Virus record (IMG/VR): IMGVR_UViG_3300032116_012976
Length of the DNA stretch: 64,000 bases
From: a virus
Lineage: Duplodnaviria > Heunggongvirae > Uroviricota > Caudoviricetes
Strand: one strand, 5' to 3'
A program made the translations under genes and the position numbers. Numbering within the stretch: the stretch's first letter is position 1; each line of letters begins with the position of its first letter. The notes under the pieces were generated by a model that was not told the DNA's origin, did no database searches, and worked only from the letters and a program-made list of their open reading frames with translations. Of the stretch, positions 3,292 through 41,100 are shown piece after piece.

Positions 3292-3371
3292 TTTTGTTTC
3301 TCCTTACAGAAGTCCGATGCGAGTTCTAGTCGCTACGCGGCGGGTTAAACCGCATAAAACACCGTATTGTG

Positions 3372-3400
3372 TTGACAAGTATTTATGGAAATGTTAGAAT
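3372..3400 (+). promoter_or_regulatory. Host sigma70-type promoter for the TPR-glycosyltransferase gene
   Basis: TTGACA (3372-3377), 17-bp spacer, TG-n-TAGAAT (3392-3400). Overlaps a divergent late box on the minus strand. Confidence 0.75.
3380..3386 (-). promoter_or_regulatory. T4-type late promoter box (ATAAATA)
   Basis: One of about 15 (A/G/T)TAA(A/C/G)TA boxes placed just upstream of structural genes; resembles the T4 gp55 consensus TATAAATA. Confidence 0.65.
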
Positions 3401-3427
3401 GTAGTCATATAGCCATTAAATAGTACC

Positions 3428-4579
3428 ATGGAAACTGATTTTTTAATTTCACAAGGCAACCAACATCGAGCTGACCGACAATACGGTGAAGCCCTGCAAT
3501 GTTATGCATTGGCATTTGCCAAAGACATGGATTCAGCAGCGGCATTCAACAACTACGGCAATGTCATGCGAGAAATTGGACATCCTCAACGAGCCATACC
3601 GTTCTTGCAACATGCTGTTCTCTTGGATCCAAATAACGTAACTGCTAGATTCAATTTGGCAGTGGCACTGTTGTTGATGGGCGACTACACCAATGGATGG
3701 CCAGCTTATGAAGCCAGATGGCAATACGAACATCTTGCTGGCACTGAACCCAAACACCAACAGCCTCGCTGGCGTGGCGAAGATCTCAAAGACAAAACTA
3801 TTCTTGTGGTAGGCGAACAAGGCCACGGAGACAACATTCAGTTTTGCAGATTCTTGTACAACTTGCATGTGGCTGGAGCAAAAATCAAGCTTCAGGTTAC
3901 CGACGGATTGATTCCTTTGTTGCAATCTAGCGACGTCATTCAGCAGTTGGGAACATACACTGACGACATGGGTGAGTTTGATTATTGGATTCCTATCATG
4001 AGCATCCCTGGCATACTTGGAGTAACGTTGGAAAATTTGCCCAGGCCAGTGAACTATCTCAACGTAGATCAAGGCCGTCAGCAAGAGTGGTTGCAGATAC
4101 TGGGTCCTAAAACCCGCATGCGTGTGGGTTTTTGTTGGAGTGGGCGCAGAGATTCTTGGCTTAATCAACACAAGAGTGTGCCGTTCCCTGTAATGCTGGA
4201 CATGATCAAATCTAATCCTCAATACGAATGGATCAATTTGCAAGTTGACGCCGATCCTGAAGAAGAAGAAGCAGCCTTGCTTGAAGCAGGAGTGCAGGCC
4301 TATCCTGGCAGCGTTAAAAGTTTTGTAGACACTGCGGCATTAATTATGGCCATGGACGTTGTTATTGGCGTAGACACTGCTGTGTCACACTTGAGTGGCG
4401 CATTAGGTCGGCCCACATGGATAATGCTACAAAAATTCAGCACAGACTGGCGTTGGTTGTTGAATCAAGATTCTAGTCCTTGGTATTCAACTGCTAGACT
4501 TTTTAGACAAGAAAACTTTGATGACTGGACAGCAGTTACCAAAAAAGTCAGCCAATATCTAGGGTGGATGAAAGTTTAA
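3428..4579 (+). CDS. TPR-repeat protein fused to a GT-B (GT9/heptosyltransferase-like) glycosyltransferase domain
   Basis: N-terminal TPRs (AAAFNNYGNVMREIG..., ARFNLAVALLLMG), then EQGHGDNIQF, RVGFCWSG, DVVIGVDTAVSHLSGALGRPTW and DWRW motifs typical of TPR-GT9 proteins. Confidence 0.85.
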   Translation: METDFLISQGNQHRADRQYGEALQCYALAFAKDMDSAAAFNNYGNVMREIGHPQRAIPFLQHAVLLDPNNVTARFNLAVALLLMGDYTNGWPAYEARWQYEHLAGTEPKHQQPRWRGEDLKDKTILVVGEQGHGDNIQFCRFLYNLHVAGAKIKLQVTDGLIPLLQSSDVIQQLGTYTDDMGEFDYWIPIMSIPGILGVTLENLPRPVNYLNVDQGRQQEWLQILGPKTRMRVGFCWSGRRDSWLNQHKSVPFPVMLDMIKSNPQYEWINLQVDADPEEEEAALLEAGVQAYPGSVKSFVDTAALIMAMDVVIGVDTAVSHLSGALGRPTWIMLQKFSTDWRWLLNQDSSPWYSTARLFRQENFDDWTAVTKKVSQYLGWMKV

Positions 4580-9086: not shown

Positions 9087-10847
9087 TTATACTCCGCCAG
9101 GTGCAGCCCCAGGTGCAGCCGCGCCAGGGCCAACCATTTCGCCTGCGCCAGGCTGTTGCATTTGCCCAATTTCTTCGCCAGTGGTAATATCAGTTTCCAT
9201 GCCGCCAGGCGTGATACCCACAGAACGTAAGTCAGCACCGCCTGAATTTTGCATTTCAGGGCTATCACGTTCTTCTCGCCAGAGTTCTTCGTTTTCTTTG
9301 ATTTCGTCTTCACTCAATCCCAAGAAACGCTGTAGCATAAAACGTTTTGACATGTAAGGCAGTTGCTCCATGGCTGTGAATGCTTGAATTCTTGTGTTGT
9401 CTAGTTCGCTTTGACGATAACTTGCAAAGTTTTGAGGCGGTGAAAACTTCAAATTAAACAGGCTAGAGTCTATGTTAAACCCACGCCATTTCAAAAACAT
9501 CTTGAATTCGTCGTCTAATTTTTGTGAAATATGCCCTTGCAAACGCTCACAATACTGGTTGAATCTGTACTCTTGTATAAGAGCTGTGCCTACTTTTCCG
9601 TCTGAAAAAGCACGGTCTGAATCGTCAGGACCAGTGGGCAAATAGCTCGATGGCACACGCAGACCACGGGCCATTTTGTTGTTAAAGTACTTTAAGTCGT
9701 CAATTTCGCCTAGGTTTTGACCGCCTGGCAATGTCTCAACTGAGCTTCCGCGGCCGTCTTGTCCTTGTGGGAAAAAGTAGTCTTCGTTGATTGACAGTGG
9801 ATTGTAACTGCTATCCATCATGTTGGCTCCGCCACCTGATACCGTGGGGATTCTACGTTGATGCATTTCGTTTTTAACACGTTCCACAAACGCCATGGCC
9901 AAGTGTGATGGCATGTTGCCTACGTCAATTTTAAAGATTCGTCGTTCAGGAGCACGGCTCACACGATAAATCAAGATTGCATCTTCCAGCAGTTCTTTTT
10001 GCTTGAATACTTTGTAAATCTGTTCTAGTACACTGCGTCCAAACGGCCAAAATACGTCTAGGCCTTCGTTCAAGCTCATGTGTATCACATGCTTGGCATC
10101 TAAACAAGTTTCGTTCATGGCAGTCATAAAGCGACTGTTGCCCACGCCGCCACCTGACCCACCATTGGGCATGGTGTAGTTGGCAGCGCCAGATACACTG
10201 CCTGTCACAGGATTGGTCATGTAGTCTGTGGTGGTCTTTGCTGCCACAGTCATGTTTTGGAAGTTGGGGTTGATGTCACGGATCACATATTGTTCAGGAC
10301 GTTTGCCTTCAGATTCGTTCACAATAACTCTAGCAACTTTGGTCATGTCAACCCAGTACATTTCAAATGTTTCTGGATCACGCACAAACACCTGATCACC
10401 ATACTTGATGGTGTTACGGAACAGTTTAAATATGCGCTGATCTAGTTTGTTCAGCTTGACCCACTGTTGCAGTTGTTTTTTAATGATGTCAACTTCGTGG
10501 TCTGTGGGTGTTTCGTTGTATTGAATGTCAAACGGGGTGGCGTTTGACTCGTTGATCTGTGTGGAAAACTCAGCAATAATATCCAAGCAGGCATTGATCT
10601 CTGAGTCCATGTCCATGTTCTCATACTGATTGTAACGCTCTACTCTGTTGGGATGGCCTGAATAAACTTCGGGCAATCTGCTGGCATAGTTTCGAAAAGT
10701 AAAATCATTTATCATCGAATCAGAGCCGTCGTTTTTGCCGTAGTTGGACAATCCAAATTGATTTTGTCCAGAAATTGGACTCATCACTCCGGATGTGTCT
10801 GCAACTTTGAAATATTTGCGCCAGCCTTGTTGTTTGGGTTCTGCCAT
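9087..10847 (-). CDS. gp20: Portal vertex protein, T4 gp20 family
   Basis: LLEDAILIYRVSRAPERRIFKIDVGNMP, EDYFFP...GSSVETLPGGQNLGEIDDLKYF and ARGLRVPSSYL are gp20 hallmarks. Confidence 0.97.
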   Translation of the reverse strand: MAEPKQQGWRKYFKVADTSGVMSPISGQNQFGLSNYGKNDGSDSMINDFTFRNYASRLPEVYSGHPNRVERYNQYENMDMDSEINACLDIIAEFSTQINESNATPFDIQYNETPTDHEVDIIKKQLQQWVKLNKLDQRIFKLFRNTIKYGDQVFVRDPETFEMYWVDMTKVARVIVNESEGKRPEQYVIRDINPNFQNMTVAAKTTTDYMTNPVTGSVSGAANYTMPNGGSGGGVGNSRFMTAMNETCLDAKHVIHMSLNEGLDVFWPFGRSVLEQIYKVFKQKELLEDAILIYRVSRAPERRIFKIDVGNMPSHLAMAFVERVKNEMHQRRIPTVSGGGANMMDSSYNPLSINEDYFFPQGQDGRGSSVETLPGGQNLGEIDDLKYFNNKMARGLRVPSSYLPTGPDDSDRAFSDGKVGTALIQEYRFNQYCERLQGHISQKLDDEFKMFLKWRGFNIDSSLFNLKFSPPQNFASYRQSELDNTRIQAFTAMEQLPYMSKRFMLQRFLGLSEDEIKENEELWREERDSPEMQNSGGADLRSVGITPGGMETDITTGEEIGQMQQPGAGEMVGPGAAAPGAAPGGV

Positions 10848-10863
10848 GGTTGTTTATTTACCG

Positions 10864-13800
10864 TTAGTTTGCACTCACCTGGAGTATCTTCTTGCTGATG
10901 TCGTTGGCTTCACTCTGCTTGGCAATTAGTGCATCAATGCCGGCAATCAGCGCATCTGTTTCTGGGGAAGCGTTTTCTTTGGCTATTTTATTTGCCATTT
11001 CTGTTCCCAATACTGTCATAGCTTCTTTGAACTCTGCAAACATTAAATCAAATGCTTCTTTCTGATTCACACCGTTTTCGGCCACAATATCATTCAATCG
11101 TTGACCTAATAGGGGGCCTGCGCCGTCAAACATTTGAGTGCCTATTTTCATAATATTAGTATCAAAATTTGTTGCAATGCCTGAATTTATAATTTCTTTC
11201 CAGGTTGCTGGATCAGTGATGGTTTGTGATGCTTTATCAAAAGCCCCCATGGCTGTTGCAATTTCTTTAACTGCGGCAAGATCAGTACTTACTGCTCCTG
11301 TATTGTAACCCGTATATTGATTGTAGCCCATGACTGATGGGCCAATGCCGCCTTCGGCCATTACATCTTTGAAATCCAGCTTGATCGGAATTGGCTTGGA
11401 TATATTCAGTGGAATTTCTTTGCCATCCATGGGAATCACAGCTTCTGGACCTTTTTCACCAATCAACGCCAGTGTGGCTTTGTCCACCATGCCGCCATCA
11501 CCAAATGCCGGGATCTGTGCATGGAAGTGGCCACCTGTGGCATTTTTAGTGGCGTTGTGGTACTCATCTATAGCAAGACTGGCTCCTGACTGTTTGAGCC
11601 AACTAACAATGCTTGCACCTTCTTCTCGTGTGGGCTTTTTGTTCAGCACAAAGTCCATGGCCTGGCCTTTGGTATGCAAGCTATTTGGACTTTTTTCATT
11701 GTGGAATTGATCGTTAAATCCTGTAAATGCTGAAAATCCAGGCACTAGACTTTGAACATTTTTAGCCAGCTCAATCAGCTTAGGGCTGATTGCCGCGCCT
11801 TCAGCTTGTACATCACGATTGGGATCAAATTTGAGGCCCATGGACAACAAATTGTTTTCATTGGCAGTTTTCATGCCTTGGCCGCCACCTGGGCTAACAC
11901 CGCTACCTCCGCCCATGCCCCCAGCTGGTGGTGCTGCTGGAATTTTTAGGCCAGTGCCTCCACCCATGCCTGGCGCACCGCCTGAACCCGCAGAACCACT
12001 TTGTTCAGATTGTTCTTGCAGTAGCTCTAAGTTTTCACCCAATATCTGGGTGACACTGTCAAGATATTTTTTGTGAAAATCCACAAACTCTTTTGTGCGT
12101 TTGGTGTCTTGATCAGTGTAACGTTCAATGCGTTGTATGTCTGTCAAAGTATCACGTTGAGCTACAATTACTGATTCTGTTGTTTTTTTGTTTTTATCGT
12201 TTAGCTCGTCAACAGATCTCAGTATTGCTTGATATGTGCTACCAACGTTTTGTGTGGTTCTCAAATTGTTAGTCAGTTCGTCATTGGTGTTAGTAACCAC
12301 AGTTACAGAACTGCCCATCACTTGAGATATCATATCAACACTGACTTGTCCTGAAGATACAGAAGAAGCCATTGACTCAAACATCTTGCTTAGTTTGTCA
12401 TTGTTTATAATTTTTCCTGATTGCTCAGGCACCATGAGCTCTGGACCACGTTCGCCCACAATGTAGGGATTTCGTCTGCTGACAGGTCCGCCAGCGGCAC
12501 GCCCAGGAGGAGTTAATGCGGTACCTAATGCATCAGCGCCCATGCCTAAATATTTGCCAAGAACACTACCAAGGGCAGTGGCAATATATGGGCCAATCTT
12601 TCCACCTATAGCGGCTCCAGCCACAGTGCCCGCAGGTCCAAAAAGAGAGCCAACTATTCCACCTGCATAAGTACCAGCTATTTTACCACCCGCCGCACCA
12701 GCTAATGCACCAACACCAGTTCCAACCATTTCACTGCCGCCAGATCTGTAAAATCCGCCCATGCCGTCTTTTTGTGTGGCTTCTACCACATCAACAGTTT
12801 TACCAACAATGAATCCTAGTTTTTCGGCAATCCAGTCTGTGAGTTTGACCATTTGTTTCATAAACTTGTCCATCACTGGTTGCAGTTCTTTAAATGCAGT
12901 GGCAATAGGTTCAGTAACTCCGACCAAAGATTTGCTCATGGCAATGGCAGTGCTGATTGATTGCGACACTGTGGTCTCAAATTTTTCATTGGCATTGCGC
13001 TGCATTTCACGCAGTTCAGCCATGGCCCGAGTGTTGGCATCACCCAGGCCACTCATCTGTTTGTTTTGTTCAACGACAATTTCAGCAGCTATCTTACTGA
13101 TGTCTTGCTGGGCAAAAATAGCCAGTTTTTGTCCCTGTGCATAATCAATTGCAAAATCATTCAACAGGCCCAGCTGAGCCGTAAAGTTCAAGTCCTTATT
13201 GAATTGGCCAATTGAGGTACCAATTTGTTTGACAGCTTGATTGGCATCAATTTGACCTGACTGCAATGCTTCACTTGATTGCATCAACTGACCTTGAGTG
13301 CTGATCACGCCCTTGACAGCAGCATCGCTGGTAAGAGCTCCAGATTGAATGTCTCTAAATGCTTGTCCTAACTCTGGAGCCTGCTTGCTCAACATAAGAT
13401 TAGCTCTCATCAGTTGATCAGCAGCAGCCATTTGTTGAGGATCCTTGGTCGCTCGCATGGCATCCAGCTTGGCACGGAATCTCTGTTCGCTGAGAGCAGA
13501 TTCCATTTGCTTTTCAATTTCTTGACGTTGCATGCCTGTGAGCTTGCTGAGGCCGTCCATTTCAACAAGATATTTTCTAGCACCAGTAGCCAGTTCTTGG
13601 TTGGTTTTGTTTTGACTCTGACCAATCAAAGTTTGCAGTCTCAAATAGCCAGCTGTTCCTTCAATCTGATCTTCCAGACTGATACCAGCTGCCTCTAAGC
13701 TGACCCGGAAAGGCTTCATGGCCGCACCAATGTTGGCAAATGCCTGACGTCCTTCAAATGCTGTGCCTTTGAACAAGGCCAATTCTGCGCTGTTGGCTGC

Positions 13801-14340
13801 TACTGCATTGGTGTATACACCCAGCTCTTTCATGCTCAAGCCAAGCTTCTTGGCGTCGCGGAAGATGCCCATCATGCCATCTGAACCAGCCAGGCCAGCT
13901 TTGGCCATTTTGGTATTGGCAGCAAACAAGTTGTCGGCCATGTCGTTGGCCGCCTGAGTCATCTTAATACTAGCGCCAACTGCGGCTGTGCCCAGACCAA
14001 TTAGAGCTTTGATCAAGAACCCGCCAGGCACCAAGAAAGTCAACGCAGCACCGGCTGCGGTAACTGCTTTGCTCATGCTGTCAAGTGAACTGTTAAATGC
14101 TGCGGCGCCTTTTTGGCCATCGTACATGGCTTTGCCGGCTGCAAGACCTGCACCTGCTAGGTTTCCCAGCGCACCTGCTGTTAACGCACTGGCCTTGTCA
14201 AGTTCTTTTGCTCGACGGAAACTTCCTGCTGCCAGTGCTGCCTGGGTATCTTCAGTAACTCGCCCAAAATTTCTAAGGTCGTCAGAAACTCGTGCTATGA
14301 CTTCAGCCATTTCTTGTGATGCTTGATTTACGTCCGCCAT
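10864..14340 (-). CDS. Tape-measure-like protein with glycine-zipper segments and an M15-type Zn peptidase domain
   Basis: Long A/Q-rich helical N-half; two TMP-type motifs (RAAGGPV...IVGERGPEL; FGDGGMV...IGEKGPEAVIP); SLHTKGQAMDF...GGHFHA; divergent from the gp26-like chaperone gene. Confidence 0.75.
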   Translation of the reverse strand: MADVNQASQEMAEVIARVSDDLRNFGRVTEDTQAALAAGSFRRAKELDKASALTAGALGNLAGAGLAAGKAMYDGQKGAAAFNSSLDSMSKAVTAAGAALTFLVPGGFLIKALIGLGTAAVGASIKMTQAANDMADNLFAANTKMAKAGLAGSDGMMGIFRDAKKLGLSMKELGVYTNAVAANSAELALFKGTAFEGRQAFANIGAAMKPFRVSLEAAGISLEDQIEGTAGYLRLQTLIGQSQNKTNQELATGARKYLVEMDGLSKLTGMQRQEIEKQMESALSEQRFRAKLDAMRATKDPQQMAAADQLMRANLMLSKQAPELGQAFRDIQSGALTSDAAVKGVISTQGQLMQSSEALQSGQIDANQAVKQIGTSIGQFNKDLNFTAQLGLLNDFAIDYAQGQKLAIFAQQDISKIAAEIVVEQNKQMSGLGDANTRAMAELREMQRNANEKFETTVSQSISTAIAMSKSLVGVTEPIATAFKELQPVMDKFMKQMVKLTDWIAEKLGFIVGKTVDVVEATQKDGMGGFYRSGGSEMVGTGVGALAGAAGGKIAGTYAGGIVGSLFGPAGTVAGAAIGGKIGPYIATALGSVLGKYLGMGADALGTALTPPGRAAGGPVSRRNPYIVGERGPELMVPEQSGKIINNDKLSKMFESMASSVSSGQVSVDMISQVMGSSVTVVTNTNDELTNNLRTTQNVGSTYQAILRSVDELNDKNKKTTESVIVAQRDTLTDIQRIERYTDQDTKRTKEFVDFHKKYLDSVTQILGENLELLQEQSEQSGSAGSGGAPGMGGGTGLKIPAAPPAGGMGGGSGVSPGGGQGMKTANENNLLSMGLKFDPNRDVQAEGAAISPKLIELAKNVQSLVPGFSAFTGFNDQFHNEKSPNSLHTKGQAMDFVLNKKPTREEGASIVSWLKQSGASLAIDEYHNATKNATGGHFHAQIPAFGDGGMVDKATLALIGEKGPEAVIPMDGKEIPLNISKPIPIKLDFKDVMAEGGIGPSVMGYNQYTGYNTGAVSTDLAAVKEIATAMGAFDKASQTITDPATWKEIINSGIATNFDTNIMKIGTQMFDGAGPLLGQRLNDIVAENGVNQKEAFDLMFAEFKEAMTVLGTEMANKIAKENASPETDALIAGIDALIAKQSEANDISKKILQVSAN

Positions 14341-14381: not shown

Positions 14382-15227
14382 ATGAACCAAAATCACAATC
14401 CACTTAGACAATTTTTTAGACAACCAGCAATTTACTTGCGGTTGCCCAGCCAGGGCAAATACTGGCCCGAAGGCAGCTTAGACGTGCCTCAAAACGGTGA
14501 GCTGCCTGTTTATCCCATGACAGCCATTGACGAAATCACCTATCGCACGCCAGATGCGCTGTTTAGCGGGCAAGCTGTGGTCAATGTAATACACAGTTGT
14601 GTGCCGTCAATTAAGAATGCCTGGCATGCTCCTGTGGCAGATTTGAATTCTATCCTAGTTGCTATTCGTATTGCCAGCTACGGGCATGAGCTTGAAATTG
14701 AAACTACATGTCCTGCTTGCAAACACATTGAGAGTTTTGCGTTAGACTTGCGCAATGCACTGGATCAGTTGACCATGCCGGACTTTTCTGCCACAGTAAC
14801 TTATGGTGATTTGGAAATTTATTTTCATCCCATGAGTTACGAAAAGCAAAATGAAATCAATCTTGAGCAGTTTGAAAATCAACGCATGATGCGCAACATC
14901 AGCATGGATACTGAGCTCACCGAAGACGAAAAGTTACAAAAACTAGCAGAAGTGATGAAAATACTAACTCAGCTGACCATGCGAGCTCTCAAGTACTCAA
15001 TTTCAGCAATTCGTACACCAAATGCTGTTGTGTCAGAGACTGAGCACATTGATGAATTTTTGCAAAACTGCGATCGTCAAATTTTTGTTGCTGTTAGAGA
15101 TCACGCAGTTGACTTGCGCAATCGTACAGAACTGAAACCTGTGCATCTCACTTGCAGTGAATGCAATCACGAACATGATCAAGCACTAAATCTGGATCTT
15201 ACAAATTTTTTCGAAGCCGCCTCCTGA
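14382..15227 (+). CDS. gp26: Baseplate hub assembly protein / tail assembly chaperone, T4 gp26-like
   Basis: PMTAIDEI-type motif, LVAIRIASYG, CPAC and C-terminal CSECNH Zn motifs, ends ...LTNFF. Confidence 0.75.
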   Translation: MNQNHNPLRQFFRQPAIYLRLPSQGKYWPEGSLDVPQNGELPVYPMTAIDEITYRTPDALFSGQAVVNVIHSCVPSIKNAWHAPVADLNSILVAIRIASYGHELEIETTCPACKHIESFALDLRNALDQLTMPDFSATVTYGDLEIYFHPMSYEKQNEINLEQFENQRMMRNISMDTELTEDEKLQKLAEVMKILTQLTMRALKYSISAIRTPNAVVSETEHIDEFLQNCDRQIFVAVRDHAVDLRNRTELKPVHLTCSECNHEHDQALNLDLTNFFEAAS

Positions 15228-15442
15228 TCCTCCCAGTAGAGGAAATTGGCGAGTACATTGACAGCCTTGATCAGGAGGCCAACGCAATTAGATCAAACAG
15301 TTTAAGATTGGCTTGGTTAATGCGCGGCGGACTCACCTACGATCAGGTGTTGGCACTAAGTTTCACTGAAAGAAAAATGATCAGCAAGATAGCCGAAGAA
15401 AACATGGAAACCACCAACAAAACTAAACTGCCGTATTTCTAA
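15209..15442 (+). CDS. gp51/gpE'-like extension in the -1 frame, probably expressed by programmed frameshift from gp26
   Basis: Not in ORF track. The -1 frame is open from 15179 to TAA at 15442 (FRSRLLILPVEEIGEYIDSLDQEANAIRSNSLRLAWLMRGGLTYDQVLALSFTERKMISKIAEENMETTNKTKLPYF) with no ATG before 15320 and no RBS; slippery A_AAT_TTT_TTC at 15203-15212. Confidence 0.65.
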   Translation, partial: FRSRLLILPVEEIGEYIDSLDQEANAIRSNSLRLAWLMRGGLTYDQVLALSFTERKMISKIAEENMETTNKTKLPYF

Positions 15443-15942
15443 TGGACTTAGATACAGTTAAACAAGATATTGAAAACTGGATTGTGAACTTTGTAGAAGT
15501 TCCACATCCTGCTCTTGGAGGCTGGGCTCCTTGTCCATACGCACGCTCAGCACGCATGAAAAAAAGCTACGATGTACATGTTGGCGTAGATCCTTACTTT
15601 GATCTTAAAAATCGAGCACGATGGGGCATGGGCGATAAGGAAGTTATTATCTATGCTTACGATCCTGTGGAATGGCCATATGAATTGTTCAGTGACAGTT
15701 TGAAAAATGCCAACAAGGAACATTTGTTACGCAACGATCTACTTGCACTAGAGGATCATCCCGCAGACGTTGAGATGGTGAACGGTGTGTGTATGAATCA
15801 AGGCAAGTATGCTCTAGCTCTAGTGCAAAGTCTCAGCGACTTAAACAACAAAGCCAAACTTATGGCTGAGAAGGGATTCTATCACAACTGGCCAGAAGAG
15901 TATCTTGCGGGACTGTTTGAACATCGTAAGGATCCAAGATGA
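15442..15942 (+). CDS. Hypothetical protein, DUF1415-like (CPYA motif)
   Basis: W-I-x-x-F-V...GWAPCPYA resembles the CPFA motif of DUF1415; TAATG coupling to the upstream frame. Confidence 0.5.
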   Translation: MDLDTVKQDIENWIVNFVEVPHPALGGWAPCPYARSARMKKSYDVHVGVDPYFDLKNRARWGMGDKEVIIYAYDPVEWPYELFSDSLKNANKEHLLRNDLLALEDHPADVEMVNGVCMNQGKYALALVQSLSDLNNKAKLMAEKGFYHNWPEEYLAGLFEHRKDPR

Positions 15943-16373
15943 GCTATCAGTTTGCCAGAATCGATCTCAGCCAGACCAACTACACACCAAATGTAAAGTG
16001 GGAGTATTTGCGTGAGCCCAACATCAAACAGCTAAACTCTATCTACAGAGACTATTGCAAATACAAACATTTTGCAAGTGTGATGCCTATATTTGACTGT
16101 CGTTACACAGACCCAATGACAGATGTAATAGGATATTACGATCAAAATCGATTGGTTGCATTCAGTTTGATCCGACGCTATGATGATCATAACGCACTGT
16201 GCGATCAATTTGCATGGAACTACAACAATCCTAAACTACGGTTGGGAATTGAAACAATGAAAACAGAGTGTGCTATCTACAAGGAACGAGGATTCCAATA
16301 CTTGTATCTTGAGCAAGCACACCTATACAAATCCAACATGGACGGATTTGAAATACTAGGACCACTGGAGTAA
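15939..16373 (+). CDS. GNAT-fold protein resembling the C-terminal domain of arginyl/aspartyl-tRNA-protein transferases (ATE_C/Bpt)
   Basis: IGYYDQNRLVAFS...FAWNY...KLRLGIETMKTECAIYKERGFQYLYL parallels the ATE_C pattern G-x-LVAV...FYD...RSLG...EI...G-x-x-YLYL. Confidence 0.6.
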   Translation: MSYQFARIDLSQTNYTPNVKWEYLREPNIKQLNSIYRDYCKYKHFASVMPIFDCRYTDPMTDVIGYYDQNRLVAFSLIRRYDDHNALCDQFAWNYNNPKLRLGIETMKTECAIYKERGFQYLYLEQAHLYKSNMDGFEILGPLE

Positions 16374-16375
16374 CT

Positions 16376-16711
16376 ATGGATTTATATACAATTTGGGCAG
16401 ACAAAGAAGGCGACATCTCAGACTTAGACTGGGTCAACGGAATGAAAAGTTTCTTTGATCATTTGATATCAGAAGACAAGATGGTAGACTATCGTATCAC
16501 AAGATGCAAGATGGGATTCCGTTCAATTGCGGACATGCCTGAATGGATGATTATCATGGAGTTCCGAGACATGGGTCAAATGGACTCGGCTTTCAAACGA
16601 GTAGCACCGCTTGAGGGTGAACTTGAAGTCAAACACAAGTCATTCAATCAATTTGTGTCAGGCAATATTCAACATGCTTTATTTAGAGACTGGCCAGACA
16701 CATTTGTATGA
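16376..16711 (+). CDS. DUF6614-like dimeric alpha-beta barrel protein
   Basis: YTIWAD...FFDHL...YRITRCKMGF...EWMIIMEF...QMDSAF...ALFRDWPD. Confidence 0.55.
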   Translation: MDLYTIWADKEGDISDLDWVNGMKSFFDHLISEDKMVDYRITRCKMGFRSIADMPEWMIIMEFRDMGQMDSAFKRVAPLEGELEVKHKSFNQFVSGNIQHALFRDWPDTFV

Positions 16712-17232
16712 ACATCCTCGATCATGTACCTGTAGTACCTGATTGGCCCAAACCAGGTATTAACTTTTTTGACGTAACTGGCATTCTTGCCAATCCAGAA
16801 GCATTTGATTACTGCTGTGGATGGTTAAAGCATCAAGCACATTGGTATAATGCTTCCAGTCTTGTGGCTGTGGAAAGCCGTGGCTTTGTGTTTGCGGCAC
16901 CTGTAGCAAGACAATTAGGACTTCCACTAATCCTAGTACGTAAACGTGGCAAATTGCCCGGCCCCACAATACAACACAGCTATCAAACTGAATACAGCAC
17001 TGATACCATTGAAATGCACCCACACGCTCCAGTAGGCGCACATCCATTGATTGTGGATGACTTGCTAGCCACTGGAGGCACTATAATGGCCACAGCAAAT
17101 CTAATTCGCAGTCATTGGATTGACACTAAAATTTCTGCTGCTGTGATTATAAACTTGCAGAACTTGCCTGGAGGGACAGCATTGACTCGGCACAATATTA
17201 TGTGGGAAGGAATGGTCAATGTTGATGAATGA
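16708..17232 (+). CDS. apt: Adenine phosphoribosyltransferase
   Basis: WPKPGINFFDV, ESRGF, VRKRGKLPG and the PRPP-binding motif IVDDLLATGGT. Confidence 0.92.
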   Translation: MNILDHVPVVPDWPKPGINFFDVTGILANPEAFDYCCGWLKHQAHWYNASSLVAVESRGFVFAAPVARQLGLPLILVRKRGKLPGPTIQHSYQTEYSTDTIEMHPHAPVGAHPLIVDDLLATGGTIMATANLIRSHWIDTKISAAVIINLQNLPGGTALTRHNIMWEGMVNVDE

Positions 17233-17761
17233 TATTATTTTAATAGCTATTCGAGCAGAAGCACCAGATCTCAGCCACATGATGAACTTGTTTTACACTG
17301 GTGTGGGCAAGGTTAACGCTGCCATCACTGCCAGTGAAGTTATCACAAAGTATCGTCCCCGGCGTATCATTAACTTTGGCACAGCTGGTGGTATAACAGT
17401 CGCACCAGGATTCTATCAATGCACTCAGTTTGTGCAAAGAGACATGACTTGTGAAGCATTAGGGTGTACCCCAGGACAAACACCTTTTGAAACTAGCACA
17501 CACATTGGCAACTCTACTGGCTTAACTTGCAGTACTGGTGACAACTTTGTGATGAATCCCATACTACAAATACCAGCAGATGTTGTAGACATGGAAGCCT
17601 ATGCCATTGCCAAAGCATGCGAGAAATATGGAGTTGAGTTTGTGTGTTGGAAATACATCAGCGATCAAGCCAACCAACACGCACACAATGATTGGCAACA
17701 ACAAGTTGCTCAAGGACAATCACATTATGTCAACAAACTCAAAGAGTTAAACTTATTATAA
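17225..17761 (+). CDS. mtnN: 5'-methylthioadenosine/S-adenosylhomocysteine nucleosidase (PNP_UDP_1 family)
   Basis: TGVGKVNAA, INFGTAGG, STGDNFV, DMEAYAIAKAC and KYISD motifs; start taken at ATG 17225 (track gives 17219). Confidence 0.88.
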   Translation: MNDIILIAIRAEAPDLSHMMNLFYTGVGKVNAAITASEVITKYRPRRIINFGTAGGITVAPGFYQCTQFVQRDMTCEALGCTPGQTPFETSTHIGNSTGLTCSTGDNFVMNPILQIPADVVDMEAYAIAKACEKYGVEFVCWKYISDQANQHAHNDWQQQVAQGQSHYVNKLKELNLL

Positions 17762-37400: not shown

Positions 37401-38145
37401 GGTATTCTATGCCTACAGCGAAGATGCATTCTATCAATTGAGCTTGACAGTAACAGGAGTGTTGGAACTCAATGCAGTCACAGGATGGATTGCAAGAACA
37501 GGACGACAAAGTTTGTACTATCAGTACAGACACAACAGTCCATTGACCAGTAGAATTGATCCAGGAACAACCAATATCATTGACTTGTATGTGGTCACTT
37601 TGAGTTATTATAATGCCTACCAGAACTGGTTGAAAGATACCACCGGTACAGTCACTGAACCTGAACAACCAACCATTGACGATCTAAGTACAGAATATCA
37701 ACGACTACAAGATTACAAGATGGTGTCAGACAACATTGTGGTCAACTCAGTCAATTTTAAACCGCTGTTCGGACTCAAGGCCGCAGCAACATTGCGTGCC
37801 ACTATCAAAGTGATACGAGCACAAAATTCAACAGCATCAACATCTGAAATCAAAAGCTCAGTACTAGCAGAAATGAACAGTTATTTTTCAATTGACAAAT
37901 GGAACTTTGGTGACACATTTTATTTCTCAGAACTTGCTGCCTACCTGCATCGACAACTTGGCACAATCATCAGTTCTGTAGTACTAGTTCCGTTGGATCC
38001 ACAAAAGAGCTTTGGTGATTTGTACGAAATTCGTTCTCAACCCAATGAGATTTTTGCCAATGCCGCAACCATTGATAACATTGATGTGATTGAAGCATTG
38101 ACCAGTACTAACCTGCGCACAGCAGCAGGCAGCGGAGTAATTTAA
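34465..38145 (+). CDS. gp6: Baseplate wedge gp6-like (extended, 1226 aa)
   Basis: DFETLRKSF, FNDYIESSEF..LLD..A, NYLDTAERRDSV..LA, FGDG, EIKQRAP..Y.TQNRMV..EDY. Confidence 0.88.
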   Translation: MAKTTRQTAIFGVEDWKQIYQTYREADFQSYDFETLRKSFIDYIRLYYPETFNDYIESSEFIALLDVIAFMGQALAFRTDLNTRENYLDTAERRDSVVRLANLVSYTAKRNTAAQGYLKVFNVTTTENVIDYNGVNLSNVTVDWADPTNPDWQEQFTTIINAALVDSQRIGRPGNRQTILGVRTDEYAVNLVPGFLPVIPYNATVDGISMPFEAITSTSVGRDYIYEPAPQPNTSFNVLYRNDQLGYQSANTGYFFAFKQGTLQNQDFNLAERIANRTVNINIEGVNNEDRWLFQLDNVGSISREWQYTENIYVGAAEQLTGLRSIYSTTSRTNDQLTMIFGDGVFSEIPVGNFRAYVRSSNGLQYIINPEEMQNVVLPISYTDRNGNLQTITFTCGITRPVSNAQAREPIDEIKQRAPARYYTQNRMVNGEDYNLFPYTQYNSIIKSKALNRASIGTSRYLDLVDNTGKYSSTNSFGSDGGLWQQNILPTILFSWTNRNEIADVITNQVQPQLTESTMRQFYYGNFPRKLINTLDITCTATTITTNAITCATAAFFDYAYVGMPITFSGTVFGGITADLPYYVVSINSVNSTFTVSTTAGGSAVTLSSATGSMSAVTTLSTGGSTWNQSTTLANETTGYFKNSAGTPIAVGDESTTNFLYAIVGSLVRFVPPPGYFFDKNNKLQLGIPTKAEERVEIWASPIRVTGDGMNSGLGNLINGSGPVILNNFVPTGAIVDTIIPLFVTDLPLSIESAMSDQIALFRNFGLGYDNDGSITGTPYSWYLIQSTNLNQDAAWSQEYAGNTSGANLDSSWLIQFVVQNQNYTITFRGLAYNFGSVLQTRFFFYDGAQIYDSRTGTVIKDFINVLAVNTQPNSSEPLEGDIYMTITGQPVESDGYVDDFQVLVGYRDSDNDGVPDNPDFFSEIVGPAGTTGPYVFLQQTVDFDNLQRYLLVEEGVVIYSYATLDDIELVKTEWSSGQVFYAYSEDAFYQLSLTVTGVLELNAVTGWIARTGRQSLYYQYRHNSPLTSRIDPGTTNIIDLYVVTLSYYNAYQNWLKDTTGTVTEPEQPTIDDLSTEYQRLQDYKMVSDNIVVNSVNFKPLFGLKAAATLRATIKVIRAQNSTASTSEIKSSVLAEMNSYFSIDKWNFGDTFYFSELAAYLHRQLGTIISSVVLVPLDPQKSFGDLYEIRSQPNEIFANAATIDNIDVIEALTSTNLRTAAGSGVI

Positions 38146-41100
38146 TGGCACGAGTACGCTCAGTAGACTTTCTTCCGCAAATTTTTCAAACTGACACTAA
38201 CAAACAGTTTTTAGCGGCCACACTTGATCAACTGATTCAAGAACCTAAATTTAAAAAGACACAAGGCTTCATTGGCCGTACAGTCGGCCCGGGTGTAAAT
38301 CCCAACGACAAGTATGTGGTAGAACCAACAAAAACACGCAGTGATTATCAACTAGAACCAGGAGTGGTCAGTTTAGATCCTGCTGATACCACAACAATTA
38401 AAAATACCATTACCTATCCAGGTATGCTTGATGCATTGGAGTTCCAAGGATCACCAACGCAACGACCAGACAGATTGTTTTCAAGTGATTACTATACTTG
38501 GGATCCGTTTATTAATTTTGATACATTTGTAAACTTCTCTCAGTATTTCTGGTTACCCAATGGACCCAACGCAGTTGACGTTGCGGCCACAGGAGTGCCG
38601 GTAACAGACGACTTTGAAGTCACAAGAGCCAATGGCGTTTATACATTTTCTGGAATATCCGGCGAGAATCCAACTATTGAAGTGGTGCGTGGCGGCAGCT
38701 ATACATTCCAGGTTGCACAAAACTCTACAGAAACTGTAAACTACCGTGTTGGAAATTCTGGTATTTCTGCATATACCATTGACTTCCTCAACAACCCCAC
38801 ACTAACGCTGGCTCGTGGAAACACCTATGTGTTTAATTTGAACTTGCAAGGCGATTTTCCGTTCTGGATCAAAACTGAACAGACACTAGGATCAGCTAAT
38901 CCTTATAACGATGGTGTCAGTCGCAATGGATCAAACTTTGGCCTTGTGACATTTACTGTGCCAAGAAATGCACCAAACACATTGTACTATGTGAGTGGCA
39001 CACAAACTAACATGCGCGGTACGCTGAACATTGTGGATGGAACACCTGGCACTGGTCCAGGATTTTGGATACAAACAGAGCCAGGTGTGTCTGGCAAAAT
39101 TCCTACCACACCCAACATCAGTTCACGTGACGTGTTTGGTGTAACCAACAATGGTGAAGACCTTGGCACAGTGATTTTCAATGTGCCTACAAAAACAGCT
39201 CAGAGTTTTTATTACAATTTGCCAGTGTTCAGTCAAAATGTTGATTTGCTCACAGAACTCAAATTTGAACAAATCAACAATCAACCTCTAGACACGTTCA
39301 TTGAGACCTACGGCGGCATTGACGGAATAACCAGTCTCAACAACAGAACTTTAATTTTTACAAATTCAAACACTGATGCTGAAAGTGGTGGGTGGATTCG
39401 AACCAGTTTCTTTGACCCACTAGAAGCAGGGTCTGCCAATAACGGATTGATTGGCAGCTTTGACACTGAACCATTCTCTTACACAGCAGAAATTGCCCCA
39501 GAAGATAGATATCAACTTTGGCAAATCAACTACGTAGTAAGTGATGGAATTACCTATCTTAGATTGTCTAGAATAGCTACTATTGACAATTTGAACAAAT
39601 GGACCATTAGATATGGCACTGTGTACAGCAGTACCAACTGGTACAAAGATGCCGCAGGTACGTTTAGACAAATCCCTCTGCTGACAGCTTTGTTAAACAC
39701 CTTGTACTATCAAGATGGCACAGATCCAGAAATTTTTGGTACAATTAAACTGTTGGATGAAACAGAAAGTTCTACTCTGTTCATTGATGACATTTTGGGA
39801 CAAAAAAATTACACCAGCCCTAACGGTGTATCTTTTACCAACGGATTAAAAATAGTATTTCGGGGCGATGTTATTCCAGCAAGCTACAGTAGTGGAACAA
39901 TATCTTTTGTTTGCACATCTACCAACGCTGGGTTCAACACAATTAGCACAGCAACCACAGAAGATTTGTATGTTGGTCAACGGGTAGTATTTACTGGCAC
40001 AGTGATTGGAGGATTAGTTGCTGGACAATCGTATTACGTTCAGAGTATTGTAAACTCGTTTCAATTTACGGTATCAAGTGTAGTTGACGGCAGTGCTGTG
40101 ACTCTAACCACAGCCACAGCCGACATGAATGCCACCGCTATCAACTATCGTGAATATTATGTGGCTGGCGTAGGTACTGCTATTGAGTTGTTGCCTGTTA
40201 CAAATTTTGTCACTCCAGAATCTTATGTAATCAATGACAATGATTCTAGCTTGCCAGTGCCTGAAGAATTGGATTATTTCACAATTGATCGTGCAAGTCA
40301 AGACCTTAATTCTTGGACACGTTCAAACCGTTGGTTCCACATTGATGTGATCAATGCTACGGCTGCTTATAACAACACTGTGGCCACACTAGACAACAAC
40401 TATCGTGGCAAACGTCCAATTATTCAATTTCAACCAGACATTAGACTGTTTAACATGGGTACTCAGGGCAAACAACCTGTGGACATAATTGATCAGTTAG
40501 AGACAGATGCATTCTCTAACATTCAAGGATCAACTGGATACTCAGTAGACGGATATACTTTTACAAATGGTACCAGAGTTATTTTTGCTGCTGACGAAGA
40601 TCCAGATGTAAGAGACAAAATTTATGTAGTAGAATTTATTGTGCCTGACACAGTGCCGCCACTGATTGCACAACCTATTATCAATCTCACACTGGCGTCT
40701 GACGGCGAAGTATTGACTGACCAGTCTACACTGTGCTTGTCAGGTGACACGTTGCAAGGATTAACTTTCTGGTATGACGGAGCTGCTTGGATTGAGGCGC
40801 AACAAAAAACTGGAGTTCAACAGGCACCGTTGTTTGACGTGTATGACGCTGATCGAGTTAGTTTTGGTAATCAAGCAAAATATCCCAGCTCAGACTTTAT
40901 TGGTAGCAAACTATTCAGTTATGCAATTGGCGACACAAGAATACTTGATACAGTTTTAAAAATTCCATTACAGTATCTCAGTATCTCCAATGTGGGAGAT
41001 ATTGTGTTTGACAACAACCTCTACAAAGATACATTTGTATACACCAGAGATAACGTATCAGTAACTGTTGCTATTAGCTCTGGCAGTGCTAGAGAATATG

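What the first reader, a model, noticed from the sequence alone, without database searches (positions are those of the whole stretch)
15203..15442. Probable programmed -1 frameshift fusing gp26 to a gp51/gpE'-like tail: lambda G/GT logic in a T4-like phage
Seen: the gp26-like ORF ends ACA AAT TTT TTC GAA GCC GCC TCC TGA, giving two overlapping canonical X_XXY_YYZ heptamers (A_AAT_TTT at 15203-15209, T_TTT_TTC at 15206-15212). A stem-loop starts 5 nt later (CGCC 15218-15221 / GGCG 15248-15251 enclosing TCCTC/GAGGA). The -1 frame is open to 15442, has no RBS or early ATG, and its stop is coupled to the next gene (TAATG). Predicted products are 281 aa and ~353 aa. The gene sits back-to-back with the tape-measure-like gene. 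Established: lambda G/GT and P2 E/E+E' tail chaperones are made by -1 frameshifting (P2 on a T6 run). Inference: gp26/gp51-like proteins in this group are frameshift-linked tape-measure chaperones, which I do not recall being described for T4-like phages.
Basis: partly seen in the sequence, partly recalled or inferred. Interest (0 to 1): 0.78.

Follow-up and report, generated by a model that had tools for sequence, protein, structure and literature searches.

The report
Frameshifted gp26/gp51 tail-chaperone gene
One gene of this uncultured giant T4-related phage very probably makes a short and a long form of a baseplate-hub/tail assembly chaperone, because some ribosomes slip back one base at a conserved TTTTTTC; phage T4 encodes the same pair as two genes (26 and 51), and citing papers indicate this logic was already reported for T4-like phages in 2022.

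Summary
ORF 14382-15227 (281 aa) belongs to the T4 gp26/gp51 family (PF12322). It ends six codons after an in-frame U_UUU_UUC (15206-15212). The -1 frame is open from there to 15442.

All 172 relatives that could be evaluated keep NNT-TTT-TTC, although the preceding amino acid varies. These include RaK2, Serratia BF, Atu_ph07 and PA5oct-like phages. Aeh1 and a cyanophage, inspected by eye, keep it too. The 73-78-aa -1 extension is conserved as protein, and codon periodicity switches frame at the site. Diverse natural proteins of 319-351 aa carry body and extension in one frame.

A stem (15219-15229 with 15269-15279) starts 6 nt after the heptamer. Equivalent stems in relatives are unusually stable and covary.

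T4 gp26 and gp51 are paralogues: body only versus body plus C-terminal tail. So short form = gp26-like and long form (353 aa) = gp51-like. Homology of the tail to gp51 is moderate (hhalign E about 1e-4).

The idea is not new. Vladimirov, Gautam and Davidson (Virology 2022, not readable here) identified the T4-like tail assembly chaperone genes. This scan also reached the same reading on another genome.

Verdict: real, a new member of a known kind.

The parts
14382..15227 (+). Zero-frame CDS. The short form is 281 aa, a member of the gp26/gp51 family (PF12322 T4_baseplate, phrog_150), with two CxxC pairs and a C-terminal FF motif.
   Evidence: Alignment A1 shows C113, C258, C261, H263, F276 and F277 invariant, T4 gp26 included.
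15206..15212 (+). Conserved slippery heptamer U_UUU_UUC (zero-frame codons AAU UUU UUC).
   Evidence: Present in 172 of 172 evaluable relatives. The preceding codon always ends in T, although the amino acid varies among N, S, T, D, A, H, V, L and R.
15203..15209 (+). Second overlapping heptamer A_AAU_UUU. It is not conserved and is probably incidental.
   Evidence: Found in only 24 of 92 loci.
15213..15218 (+). 6-nt spacer between the heptamer and the stem.
15219..15229 (+). 5' arm of the long-range stem (GCCUCCUGAUC). It contains the zero-frame stop codon.
   Evidence: The core GCCUCCU pairs fully with its partner in the 40 sequences sharing the window's stem register (pairs 6-12 form in 39-40 of 40; one UA-for-CG and six UA-to-UG variants).
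15269..15279 (+). 3' arm of the long-range stem (GAUCAGGAGGC).
   Evidence: The 88 nt after the heptamer fold to a mean of -23.7 kcal/mol, against -14.9 for control windows in the same genes.
15212..15442 (+). -1 frame extension: 76 codons plus the stop, with base 15212 read twice. Together with 14382-15212 it gives the 353-aa long form.
   Evidence: It is conserved as protein at 26-56% identity. Codon-phase entropy is 0.86/0.53/1.43 in the -1 frame. In-frame natural fusions exist.
10864..14340 (-). Divergent neighbour: a 1158-aa tape-measure-like protein, the presumed client of the chaperone. The T4-type portal gene (9087-10847) follows it.
   Evidence: Weak PHROG tape-measure hits. The same synteny is seen in RaK2 and Serratia BF.
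15442..15942 (+). Next gene. Its ATG overlaps the stop of the extension (TAATG).
   Evidence: The TAATG overlap recurs in most relatives.

Best explanation
Gene 14382-15227 encodes the hub/tail assembly chaperone of the T4 gp26/gp51 family.

Most ribosomes terminate at TGA 15225-15227 and make the 281-aa short form, the counterpart of T4 gp26. A minority slip -1 on U_UUU_UUC (15206-15212), where both Phe-tRNAs can re-pair. The slip is helped by an mRNA stem that begins 6 nt downstream (15219-15229 paired with 15269-15279). These ribosomes continue to TAA 15440-15442 and make a 353-aa long form. Its extra 76 residues form a small helical C-terminal domain, the counterpart of the C-terminal tail of T4 gp51.

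Shown by comparison: the recoding site, the conserved -1 protein, the downstream structure, and the existence of single-frame long forms.

Inferred: that slippage is ribosomal, what its efficiency is, and that the two forms act together on the adjacent tape-measure-like protein during hub and tube initiation in the way lambda G and GT do.
For: (1) The protein is a family member. PF12322 scores 55 bits against a cut-off of 24.5, and phrog_150 matches.

(2) T4 gp26 and gp51 both match the whole of PF12322, and gp51 has an extra C-terminal tail.

(3) NNT-TTT-TTC is present in 172 of 172 evaluable loci, at 28-99% protein identity. The preceding codon is AAT, AGT, ACT, GAT, GCT, CAT, GTT, CTT or CGT. 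Cyanophage S-RIM8, Aeh1 and Paride, read by eye, keep it as well.

(4) The -1 extension always has 73-78 codons and conserved motifs: FFRxRLL..EEI, WxMRGG and ER..I. Codon-position variability flips to the -1 frame exactly at the site.

(5) A profile of the extension finds 413 proteins. At least 19 of the best 150 are diverse 319-351-aa proteins in which body and extension are in one frame. Their junction is xFR rather than FFR, and in the one case whose DNA was read there is no T6 run.

(6) The extension has no consistent start codon. The first ATG falls at extension residue 17, 21 or 39, and a Shine-Dalgarno (SD)-like motif is rare. In 69 of 172 loci the -1 frame opens only 0-3 codons before the heptamer.

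(7) A stable stem lies downstream. The window's fold has z -3.4. In 125 of 132 unique relatives a long-range helix starts within 9 nt of the heptamer, against 42% of control windows. Mean energy is -23.7 against -14.9 kcal/mol.

(8) The stem covaries in the sister clade: 86.7% of cells paired against at most 58% when partners are slid, and a covariation score of 0.179 against at most 0.068.

(9) The S-RIM8 and Aeh1 -1 extensions match the gp51-type family phrog_634 from residue 2 onward (E 2e-30 and 2e-14).

(10) Profile comparison links the extension to the gp51 tail, and the alignment is collinear: E 5e-4, 1e-4 and 3.7e-4.

(11) Literature: gp26 and gp51 are listed as hub assembly chaperones (PMC3004832). 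T4-like tail assembly chaperone genes with poly-T slippery sites are reported (PMC12846349).
Against: There is no experimental evidence for either product in this phage.

The heptamer alone occurs at chance frequency in the window.

The FF dipeptide is conserved even in T4 gp26, which has no frameshift (TTC TTT). Part of the T-run conservation is therefore a protein constraint.

An upstream paralogue in L096 keeps AAT TTT TTC although its -1 frame closes at once.

RaK2 and Serratia BF show no significantly stable downstream structure.

The position of the 3' partner of the stem shifts between clades, so there is no single consensus structure.

The link between the window's extension and the gp51 tail is only moderate (hhalign probability 31-58%), and the extension has no PHROG or Pfam hit.

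Confidence: 0.75

Rival explanations
1. Transcriptional slippage. RNA polymerase occasionally adds one U in the U6 run. An ordinary ribosome then reads ...N F F R S R..., the same 353-aa protein, without any ribosomal shift.
For: The predicted product is identical. A homopolymer run is the conserved element. The title of Vladimirov et al. [quoted passage not shown]
Against: From general knowledge, a run of six is short for efficient polymerase slippage, and known cases use about nine. The run never lengthens in 172 loci. A stable stem that covaries and starts 2-6 nt after the run is the hallmark of ribosomal -1 shifting and has no role in polymerase slippage. PMC10885494 summarises the 'other mechanism' as separate short and long genes, not slippage.
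Confidence: 0.12
2. The -1 ORF is an independent small gene started at an internal codon, as databases annotate it. Examples are the 46-aa 'baseplate hub assembly catalyst' in cyanophage S-RIM8, a 59-aa ORF in Serratia BF, and a TTG start at 15308 or an ATG at 15320 in the window.
For: Gene callers produce such ORFs of 40-98 aa. GenBank records annotate them. AGGAGG at 15273-15278 resembles a Shine-Dalgarno site.
Against: The called starts scatter over extension residues 1-39, and no start position is conserved. Shine-Dalgarno-like motifs upstream of the ATGs are rare. The most conserved N-terminal motif, FFRxRLL..EEI, lies upstream of every candidate start. The coding periodicity begins at the heptamer. 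phrog_634 aligns to S-RIM8 from extension residue 2, well upstream of the annotated Met. In-frame fusions exist. The AGGAGG is not conserved in the sister clade, but the base pairing is.
Confidence: 0.06
3. Nothing is recoded. The T-run reflects only the conserved FF dipeptide, and the open -1 frame is fortuitous or a remnant.
For: FF is conserved in T4 gp26, which has no extension. The heptamer occurs at chance frequency in the window.
Against: 172 of 172 loci keep the same codon choice plus a wobble T upstream. The extension is under purifying selection as a protein and keeps a fixed length.
Confidence: 0.02

Closest known systems
Bacteriophage T4 gp26 and gp51 (baseplate hub assembly chaperones; PF12322 T4_baseplate / phrog_150). 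Vladimirov, Gautam and Davidson (Virology 2022, 566:9-15) identified them as the tail assembly chaperones of T4-like phages.
   Same: Same protein family. Same FF motif at the end of the body. There is a short form without a C-terminal tail and a long form with one. The gene lies next to the tape-measure and hub genes.
   Different: T4 makes the two forms from two diverged paralogous genes and has no slippery site (gp26 ends TTC TTT GAG TTA CTA TAA). Here one gene makes both forms, so the two share an identical body. The body is larger (281 aa against 208) and the tail longer (76 aa against about 48). Tail homology is only moderately supported.
gp26 plus short 'gp51' of cyanophages (e.g. S-RIM8), and gp26 of Aeromonas phage Aeh1
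   Same: The same NNT TTT TTC lies a few codons before the gp26 stop, and the -1 frame continues into the gp51-like tail.
   Different: Those extensions (60-66 aa) match phrog_634 directly, and the window's does not. In the records they are annotated as a separate small gene (S-RIM8) or not at all. Aeh1 was reported as lacking gp51 (PMC3037559).
Lambda G/GT and P2 E/E+E' tail assembly chaperones (-1 programmed frameshift; Xu, Hendrix and Duda 2004; Christie et al. 2002)
   Same: The expression logic is the same: an abundant short form, a rare C-terminally extended form made by a -1 slip near the 3' end, a neighbouring tape-measure gene, and a U6-type slippery run as in P2.
   Different: No sequence or fold similarity was detected. 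The gene is divergent from the tape-measure gene rather than upstream and co-directional. The body is two to three times larger and carries a Cys4-type motif.

Membership tests
T4 gp26/gp51 family (PF12322 T4_baseplate, phrog_150) | Profile match above the curated cut-off over most of the domain | tested here: met
   PF12322 scores 55.3 bits against a cut-off of 24.5, covering residues 63-278. phrog_150 matches at E 8.8e-18.
T4 gp26/gp51 family (PF12322 T4_baseplate, phrog_150) | Conserved CxxC ... CxxC-H motif and a terminal FF | tested here: met
   Alignment A1 shows C113, C258, C261, H263, F276 and F277 invariant, T4 gp26 included.
T4 gp26/gp51 family (PF12322 T4_baseplate, phrog_150) | Predicted fold shared with annotated baseplate hub assembly proteins | tested here: met
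   The test used a proxy, the natural in-frame long form P0141 (pLDDT 89). Its best BFVD hits are 'Baseplate hub assembly protein, T4-like', with E down to 1e-14. The window's own protein was not folded.
gp51-type C-terminal tail (phrog_634; PF28602 in the precomputed tables) | Sequence homology of the -1 extension to the gp51 tail | tested here: inconclusive
   hhalign gives E 5e-4, 1e-4 and 3.7e-4 with probability 31-58%, and the alignment is collinear. The window's extension has no PHROG or Pfam hit.
Programmed -1 ribosomal frameshift cassette of tail assembly chaperones (lambda G/GT type) | In-frame X_XXY_YYZ heptamer near the 3' end, conserved in relatives | tested here: met
   172 of 172 loci.
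Programmed -1 ribosomal frameshift cassette of tail assembly chaperones (lambda G/GT type) | -1 ORF without its own start, conserved as protein | tested here: met
Programmed -1 ribosomal frameshift cassette of tail assembly chaperones (lambda G/GT type) | Downstream stimulatory RNA structure 5-9 nt from the site | tested here: met
   The window's stem starts at +6, z -3.4. The region is more stable than control windows. The stem covaries in the sister clade. No such structure is evident in RaK2 or BF.
Programmed -1 ribosomal frameshift cassette of tail assembly chaperones (lambda G/GT type) | Gene immediately upstream of, and co-directional with, the tape-measure gene | tested here: not met
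   The gene is adjacent but divergent.
Programmed -1 ribosomal frameshift cassette of tail assembly chaperones (lambda G/GT type) | Homology to gpG, gpE or Phage_TAC protein families | tested here: inconclusive
   No Pfam tail-assembly-chaperone family was hit at E up to 0.01. No chaperone appears in the fold-search lists, which does not exclude one.
Programmed -1 ribosomal frameshift cassette of tail assembly chaperones (lambda G/GT type) | Two products demonstrated, and both absent from virions | not testable with these tools
   This needs a reporter assay or proteomics.

The most novel reading that the evidence does not exclude
Ribosomal -1 frameshifting at U_UUU_UUC, with a covarying downstream stem, is the ancestral and dominant way of making the gp26/gp51 chaperone pair across the whole T4 superfamily. 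That includes cyanophages, Aeh1, and the RaK2-, PA5oct- and Atu_ph07-type jumbo phages. On this reading the two-gene arrangement of T4, and the tandem or in-frame forms seen elsewhere, are derived. The many 'short gp51' genes, 'missing gp51' cases and unannotated gaps in databases would then be mis-annotations. If the 2022 paper did not cover the jumbo clades or the RNA structure, those parts would be new.
Probability: 0.3. Interest if true: 0.5.

Novelty: new member of a known kind. Interest (0 to 1): 0.35.

Why it matters
The finding gives a correct gene model, join(14382..15212,15212..15442), for a core tail-assembly gene. That gene is mis-annotated in every GenBank record inspected here.
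- RaK2, Paride and Aeh1 have an unannotated gap.
- Serratia BF, Atu_ph07, Hallingskeid and cyanophage S-RIM8 have a spurious small ORF.

It ties the long-puzzling T4 gp26/gp51 pair to the general short/long tail-chaperone rule of long-tailed phages. It also offers a very large natural set of variants, more than 130 distinct sequences of slippery site plus stem, for studying how -1 frameshift stimulators evolve. The concept itself appears to have been published in 2022, so the gain is in breadth and annotation, not in principle.

Tried and rejected
(1) blastn of the locus against the phage collection found nothing. Relatives were reachable only at the protein level.

(2) An alignment-based locus search with the very divergent A1 failed for lack of conserved stretches. 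It was replaced by A4.

(3) RNAalifold on all 132 extension starts gave no consensus structure, because the 3' partner of the stem shifts between clades. The sequences were therefore analysed by pairing register. The 33 sequences used for the covariation count were chosen by their own minimum-free-energy register, which biases the count towards pairing.

(4) hhalign of the extension profile against the single T4 gp51 sequence gave only 3% probability, at an unrelated place. Profile-against-profile comparison was needed.

(5) Sequence search of the PDB with the long-form and gp51 profiles found nothing. Foldseek against the PDB and VIA-align wide gave no convincing match. The best Z was 6.0, for the generic helical C-terminal domain.

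(6) Rfam found no family at the site.

(7) The complex prediction of the extension with this phage's tail tube protein (L183:1075-1704) returned no verdict. It says nothing about binding either way.

(8) Vladimirov et al. 2022 could not be read. Its content is known here only from its title and from two citing papers.

(9) A_AAT_TTT was rejected as the functional site because it is not conserved.

(10) The stem was rejected as an intrinsic terminator because no T-run follows it.

Full report
**What is in the sequence**

The ORF 14382-15227 (plus strand, 281 aa) ends ACA AAT TTT TTC GAA GCC GCC TCC TGA. T_TTT_TTC (15206-15212) and A_AAT_TTT (15203-15209) are both in the X_XXY_YYZ register. The -1 frame is open for 78 codons from 15206 to TAA 15440-15442, and that stop overlaps the next ATG (TAATG). 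A -1 slip would give a protein of 277+76 = 353 aa with junction ...LTNFF/RSRLL....

TTTTTTC alone is not unusual: 20 copies in the window against 18.7 expected. Only the copy at 15206 lies in frame six codons before the stop of a long ORF with a long open -1 frame.

**Context**

The window is part of a 220.5-kb IMG/VR virus record estimated to be 63% complete, so this is a jumbo phage.

The protein matches PF12322 T4_baseplate (55 bits, cut-off 24.5) and phrog_150 'baseplate hub'. Upstream and divergent lie a 1158-aa tape-measure-like protein and a T4-type portal. The head genes follow.

The nearest cultured relatives share 26-32% identity: the RaK2, 121Q and GAP32 group, Serratia phage BF, Agrobacterium phage Atu_ph07, XacN1 and PA5oct-like phages. 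RaK2 and BF have the same order of portal, tape-measure-like gene and gp26.

**Conservation of the recoding site**

I first read the 3' ends in Atu_ph07, BF and RaK2. I then collected 170 further loci from IMG/VR with three scans.

- All 172 loci whose 3' end is present have NNT TTT TTC in the zero frame, with 2-12 sense codons between the heptamer and the stop.
- The preceding codon is AAT (66), AGT (58), ACT (22), GAT (12), GCT (7), CAT (3), GTT (2), CTT (1) or CGT (1). The amino acid varies but the wobble T never does.
- A_AAT_TTT is present in only 24 of 92 loci.
- The -1 frame then runs for 78 codons in 165 loci, 77 in one and 73 in two.

The same arrangement is seen in PA5oct-like Paride, cyanophage S-RIM8 (AGT TTT TTC GGA TAG) and Aeromonas phage Aeh1 (GAT TTT TTC GAC TGA).

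**The extension is a protein, read from the shift site**

Extensions from relatives at 28-62% body identity are 26-56% identical to the window's. They share FFRxRLL..EEI, WxMRGG and ER..I motifs.

In 74 distinct sequences of the window's clade, variability by codon position is highest at zero-frame position 3 upstream of the heptamer. After the site it switches to the -1 frame pattern of 0.86/0.53/1.43, with position 2 lowest and position 3 highest.

No start codon is conserved. The first in-frame ATG is at extension residue 17, 21 or 39 (39 in the window), and SD-like motifs are rare. In 69 of 172 loci the -1 frame opens only 0-3 codons before the heptamer.

**Natural single-frame long forms**

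A profile of the extension, searched against 1.84 billion cluster representatives, found 413 proteins. Most are fragments of 40-98 aa that gene callers started at assorted codons. At least 19 of the best 150 are proteins of 319-351 aa in which a PF12322 body is fused in frame to the extension.

Their junction reads xFR(S/N)(R/K)(I/L)L, where x is S, N, L, E, T, M, R or Q. Every frameshift-type sequence reads FFR. The DNA of one long form (P0141, locus L096) reads AGT AGT TTC AGA at the junction, with no T6 run.

L096 also has a second, upstream PF12322 paralogue of 294 aa without the extension. That gives a two-gene version of the short/long pair.

**Relation to T4**

In T4, gene 26 (208 aa) and gene 51 (249 aa) are adjacent and divergent. 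Both match the whole of PF12322 (E 9e-64 and 4e-52) and phrog_150. gp51 has about 48 extra C-terminal residues, and these carry a separate Pfam family in the precomputed tables.

T4 gp26 ends ...KEFFELL with TTC TTT, which is not slippery. Gene 25 starts at its stop codon.

The window's extension aligns to the gp51 tail with hhalign E 5e-4 (probability 31%). The in-frame long forms align collinearly to gp51 over body plus tail with E 1e-4 (probability 58%). Adding cyanophage and Aeh1 tails gives E 3.7e-4.

The -1 extensions of S-RIM8 and Aeh1 match the gp51-type family phrog_634 directly (2e-30 and 2e-14), starting at extension residue 2. The window's extension matches no PHROG.

So the short form is gp26-like and the long form is gp51-like. 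For this phage, tail homology is probable but not proven.

Sullivan et al. 2010 noted that cyanophage and vibriophage 'gp51' is only about 20% of the T4 length, and that Aeh1 lacks gp51 (PMC3037559). The present reading explains both: these are -1 extensions of gp26.

**RNA structure**

The minimum-free-energy fold of 15213-15290 pairs GCCUCCUGAUC (15219-15229, which includes the stop codon) with GAUCAGGAGGC (15269-15279), 6 nt after the heptamer. The energy is -26.2 kcal/mol, z -3.4.

- In 125 of 132 distinct relatives, the fold has a long-range helix starting within 9 nt of the heptamer, against 42% of 2244 control windows from the same genes.
- Mean energy is -23.7 against -14.9 kcal/mol. 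The site window is the most stable of its 17 controls in half of the loci.
- In the window's clade the 7-bp core GCCUCCU/AGGAGGC is almost invariant.
- In the sister clade the arms differ (GGCUUUUGAC/GUCAAAAGCC and variants) and covary. 86.7% of cells are paired, against 27-58% when partners are slid. The covariation score is 0.179 against at most 0.068. 31 cells changed on both sides, against 5-9.

Three caveats apply. That set was selected by its own fold register. The position of the 3' partner differs between clades, so there is no global consensus. RaK2 and BF show nothing significant.

The structure is the main argument for a ribosomal mechanism rather than a transcriptional one. The SD-like AGGAGG of the 3' arm is not conserved across clades, whereas the pairing is.

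**Fold**

AlphaFold2 of the in-frame long form P0141 (19-sequence alignment) gave pLDDT 89 and pTM 0.82. The model has an alpha/beta body followed by helices at 271-280, 284-313, 318-322 and 326-346, which form the extension.

No convincing solved relative was found. BFVD returns T4-like baseplate hub assembly proteins. No similarity to lambda gpG or P2 gpE was detected, which is inconclusive.

**Function**

The function is inferred, not tested. gp26 and gp51 are listed as hub assembly chaperones, and gp51 is absent from virions (PMC3004832). By analogy with lambda G/GT (general knowledge), the shared body would coat the tape-measure-like protein and the rare tail would dock the complex to hub or tube proteins.

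**Prior art**

- PMC10885494 summarises it as: some T4-like phages carry one short gene and one long fusion gene instead of frameshifting.

My other full-text searches found no description for RaK2-type jumbo phages.

This scan had already reached the same reading on another genome (e1-5321358). First readers flagged it on three more genomes.

**Verdict**

The recoding signal is real and very well conserved. It is a new member of a known kind, with useful consequences for annotation. Interest is modest.

Noticed in passing
L180 (Aeromonas phage Aeh1, NC_005260) 1899-2081: Aeh1 was reported to lack gp51 (PMC3037559). Its gp26 ends GAT TTT TTC GAC TGA, and the unannotated -1 frame encodes 60 aa that match the gp51-type family phrog_634 (E 2e-14). 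A stable stem follows the site (z -2.3).
   Followed up: partly
L179 (Synechococcus phage S-RIM8) 1869-2069: The annotated 46-aa 'baseplate hub assembly catalyst' is the 3' part of a 66-codon -1 frame. That frame starts at AGT TTT TTC, at the end of gp26. The family profile aligns from residue 2, upstream of the annotated Met.
   Followed up: partly
L096 411-2389 (Logan contig SRR29078296_1532779): There are tandem PF12322 paralogues. The upstream one (294 aa) lacks all four Cys and ends ..NFFTDNK with AAT TTT TTC, but its -1 frame closes after 3 codons. The downstream one (351 aa) carries the extension in frame. This looks like a two-gene solution independent of T4's.
   Followed up: partly
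window 15219-15225 and 15273-15279: The 5' arm GCCUCCU has the sequence of the anti-Shine-Dalgarno end of 16S rRNA, and the 3' arm AGGAGGC is Shine-Dalgarno-like. In 14 relatives the same 5' arm pairs with a second AGGAGGC 21 nt further downstream. Whether the ribosome itself interacts with these arms is unexplored.
   Followed up: no
window 15442-17761: Downstream of the chaperone gene lies a run of overlapping small genes. They show a weak DUF6875-like match, a weak match to the C-terminus of arginyl-tRNA-protein transferase (ATE_C, below cut-off), DUF6614, a phosphoribosyltransferase and a PNP_UDP_1 phosphorylase.
   Followed up: no
window 38145-52847: A single 4900-aa ORF on the plus strand follows a 1226-aa ORF. 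Neither was examined.
   Followed up: no
L003 (RaK2) 3349-3714; L181 (Paride) 1649-1873; L002 (Serratia BF) 3376-3555; L001 (Atu_ph07) 3445-3567: GenBank records of cultured jumbo phages either leave the extension unannotated or call a short ORF from an internal start. None annotates a joined CDS.
   Followed up: yes
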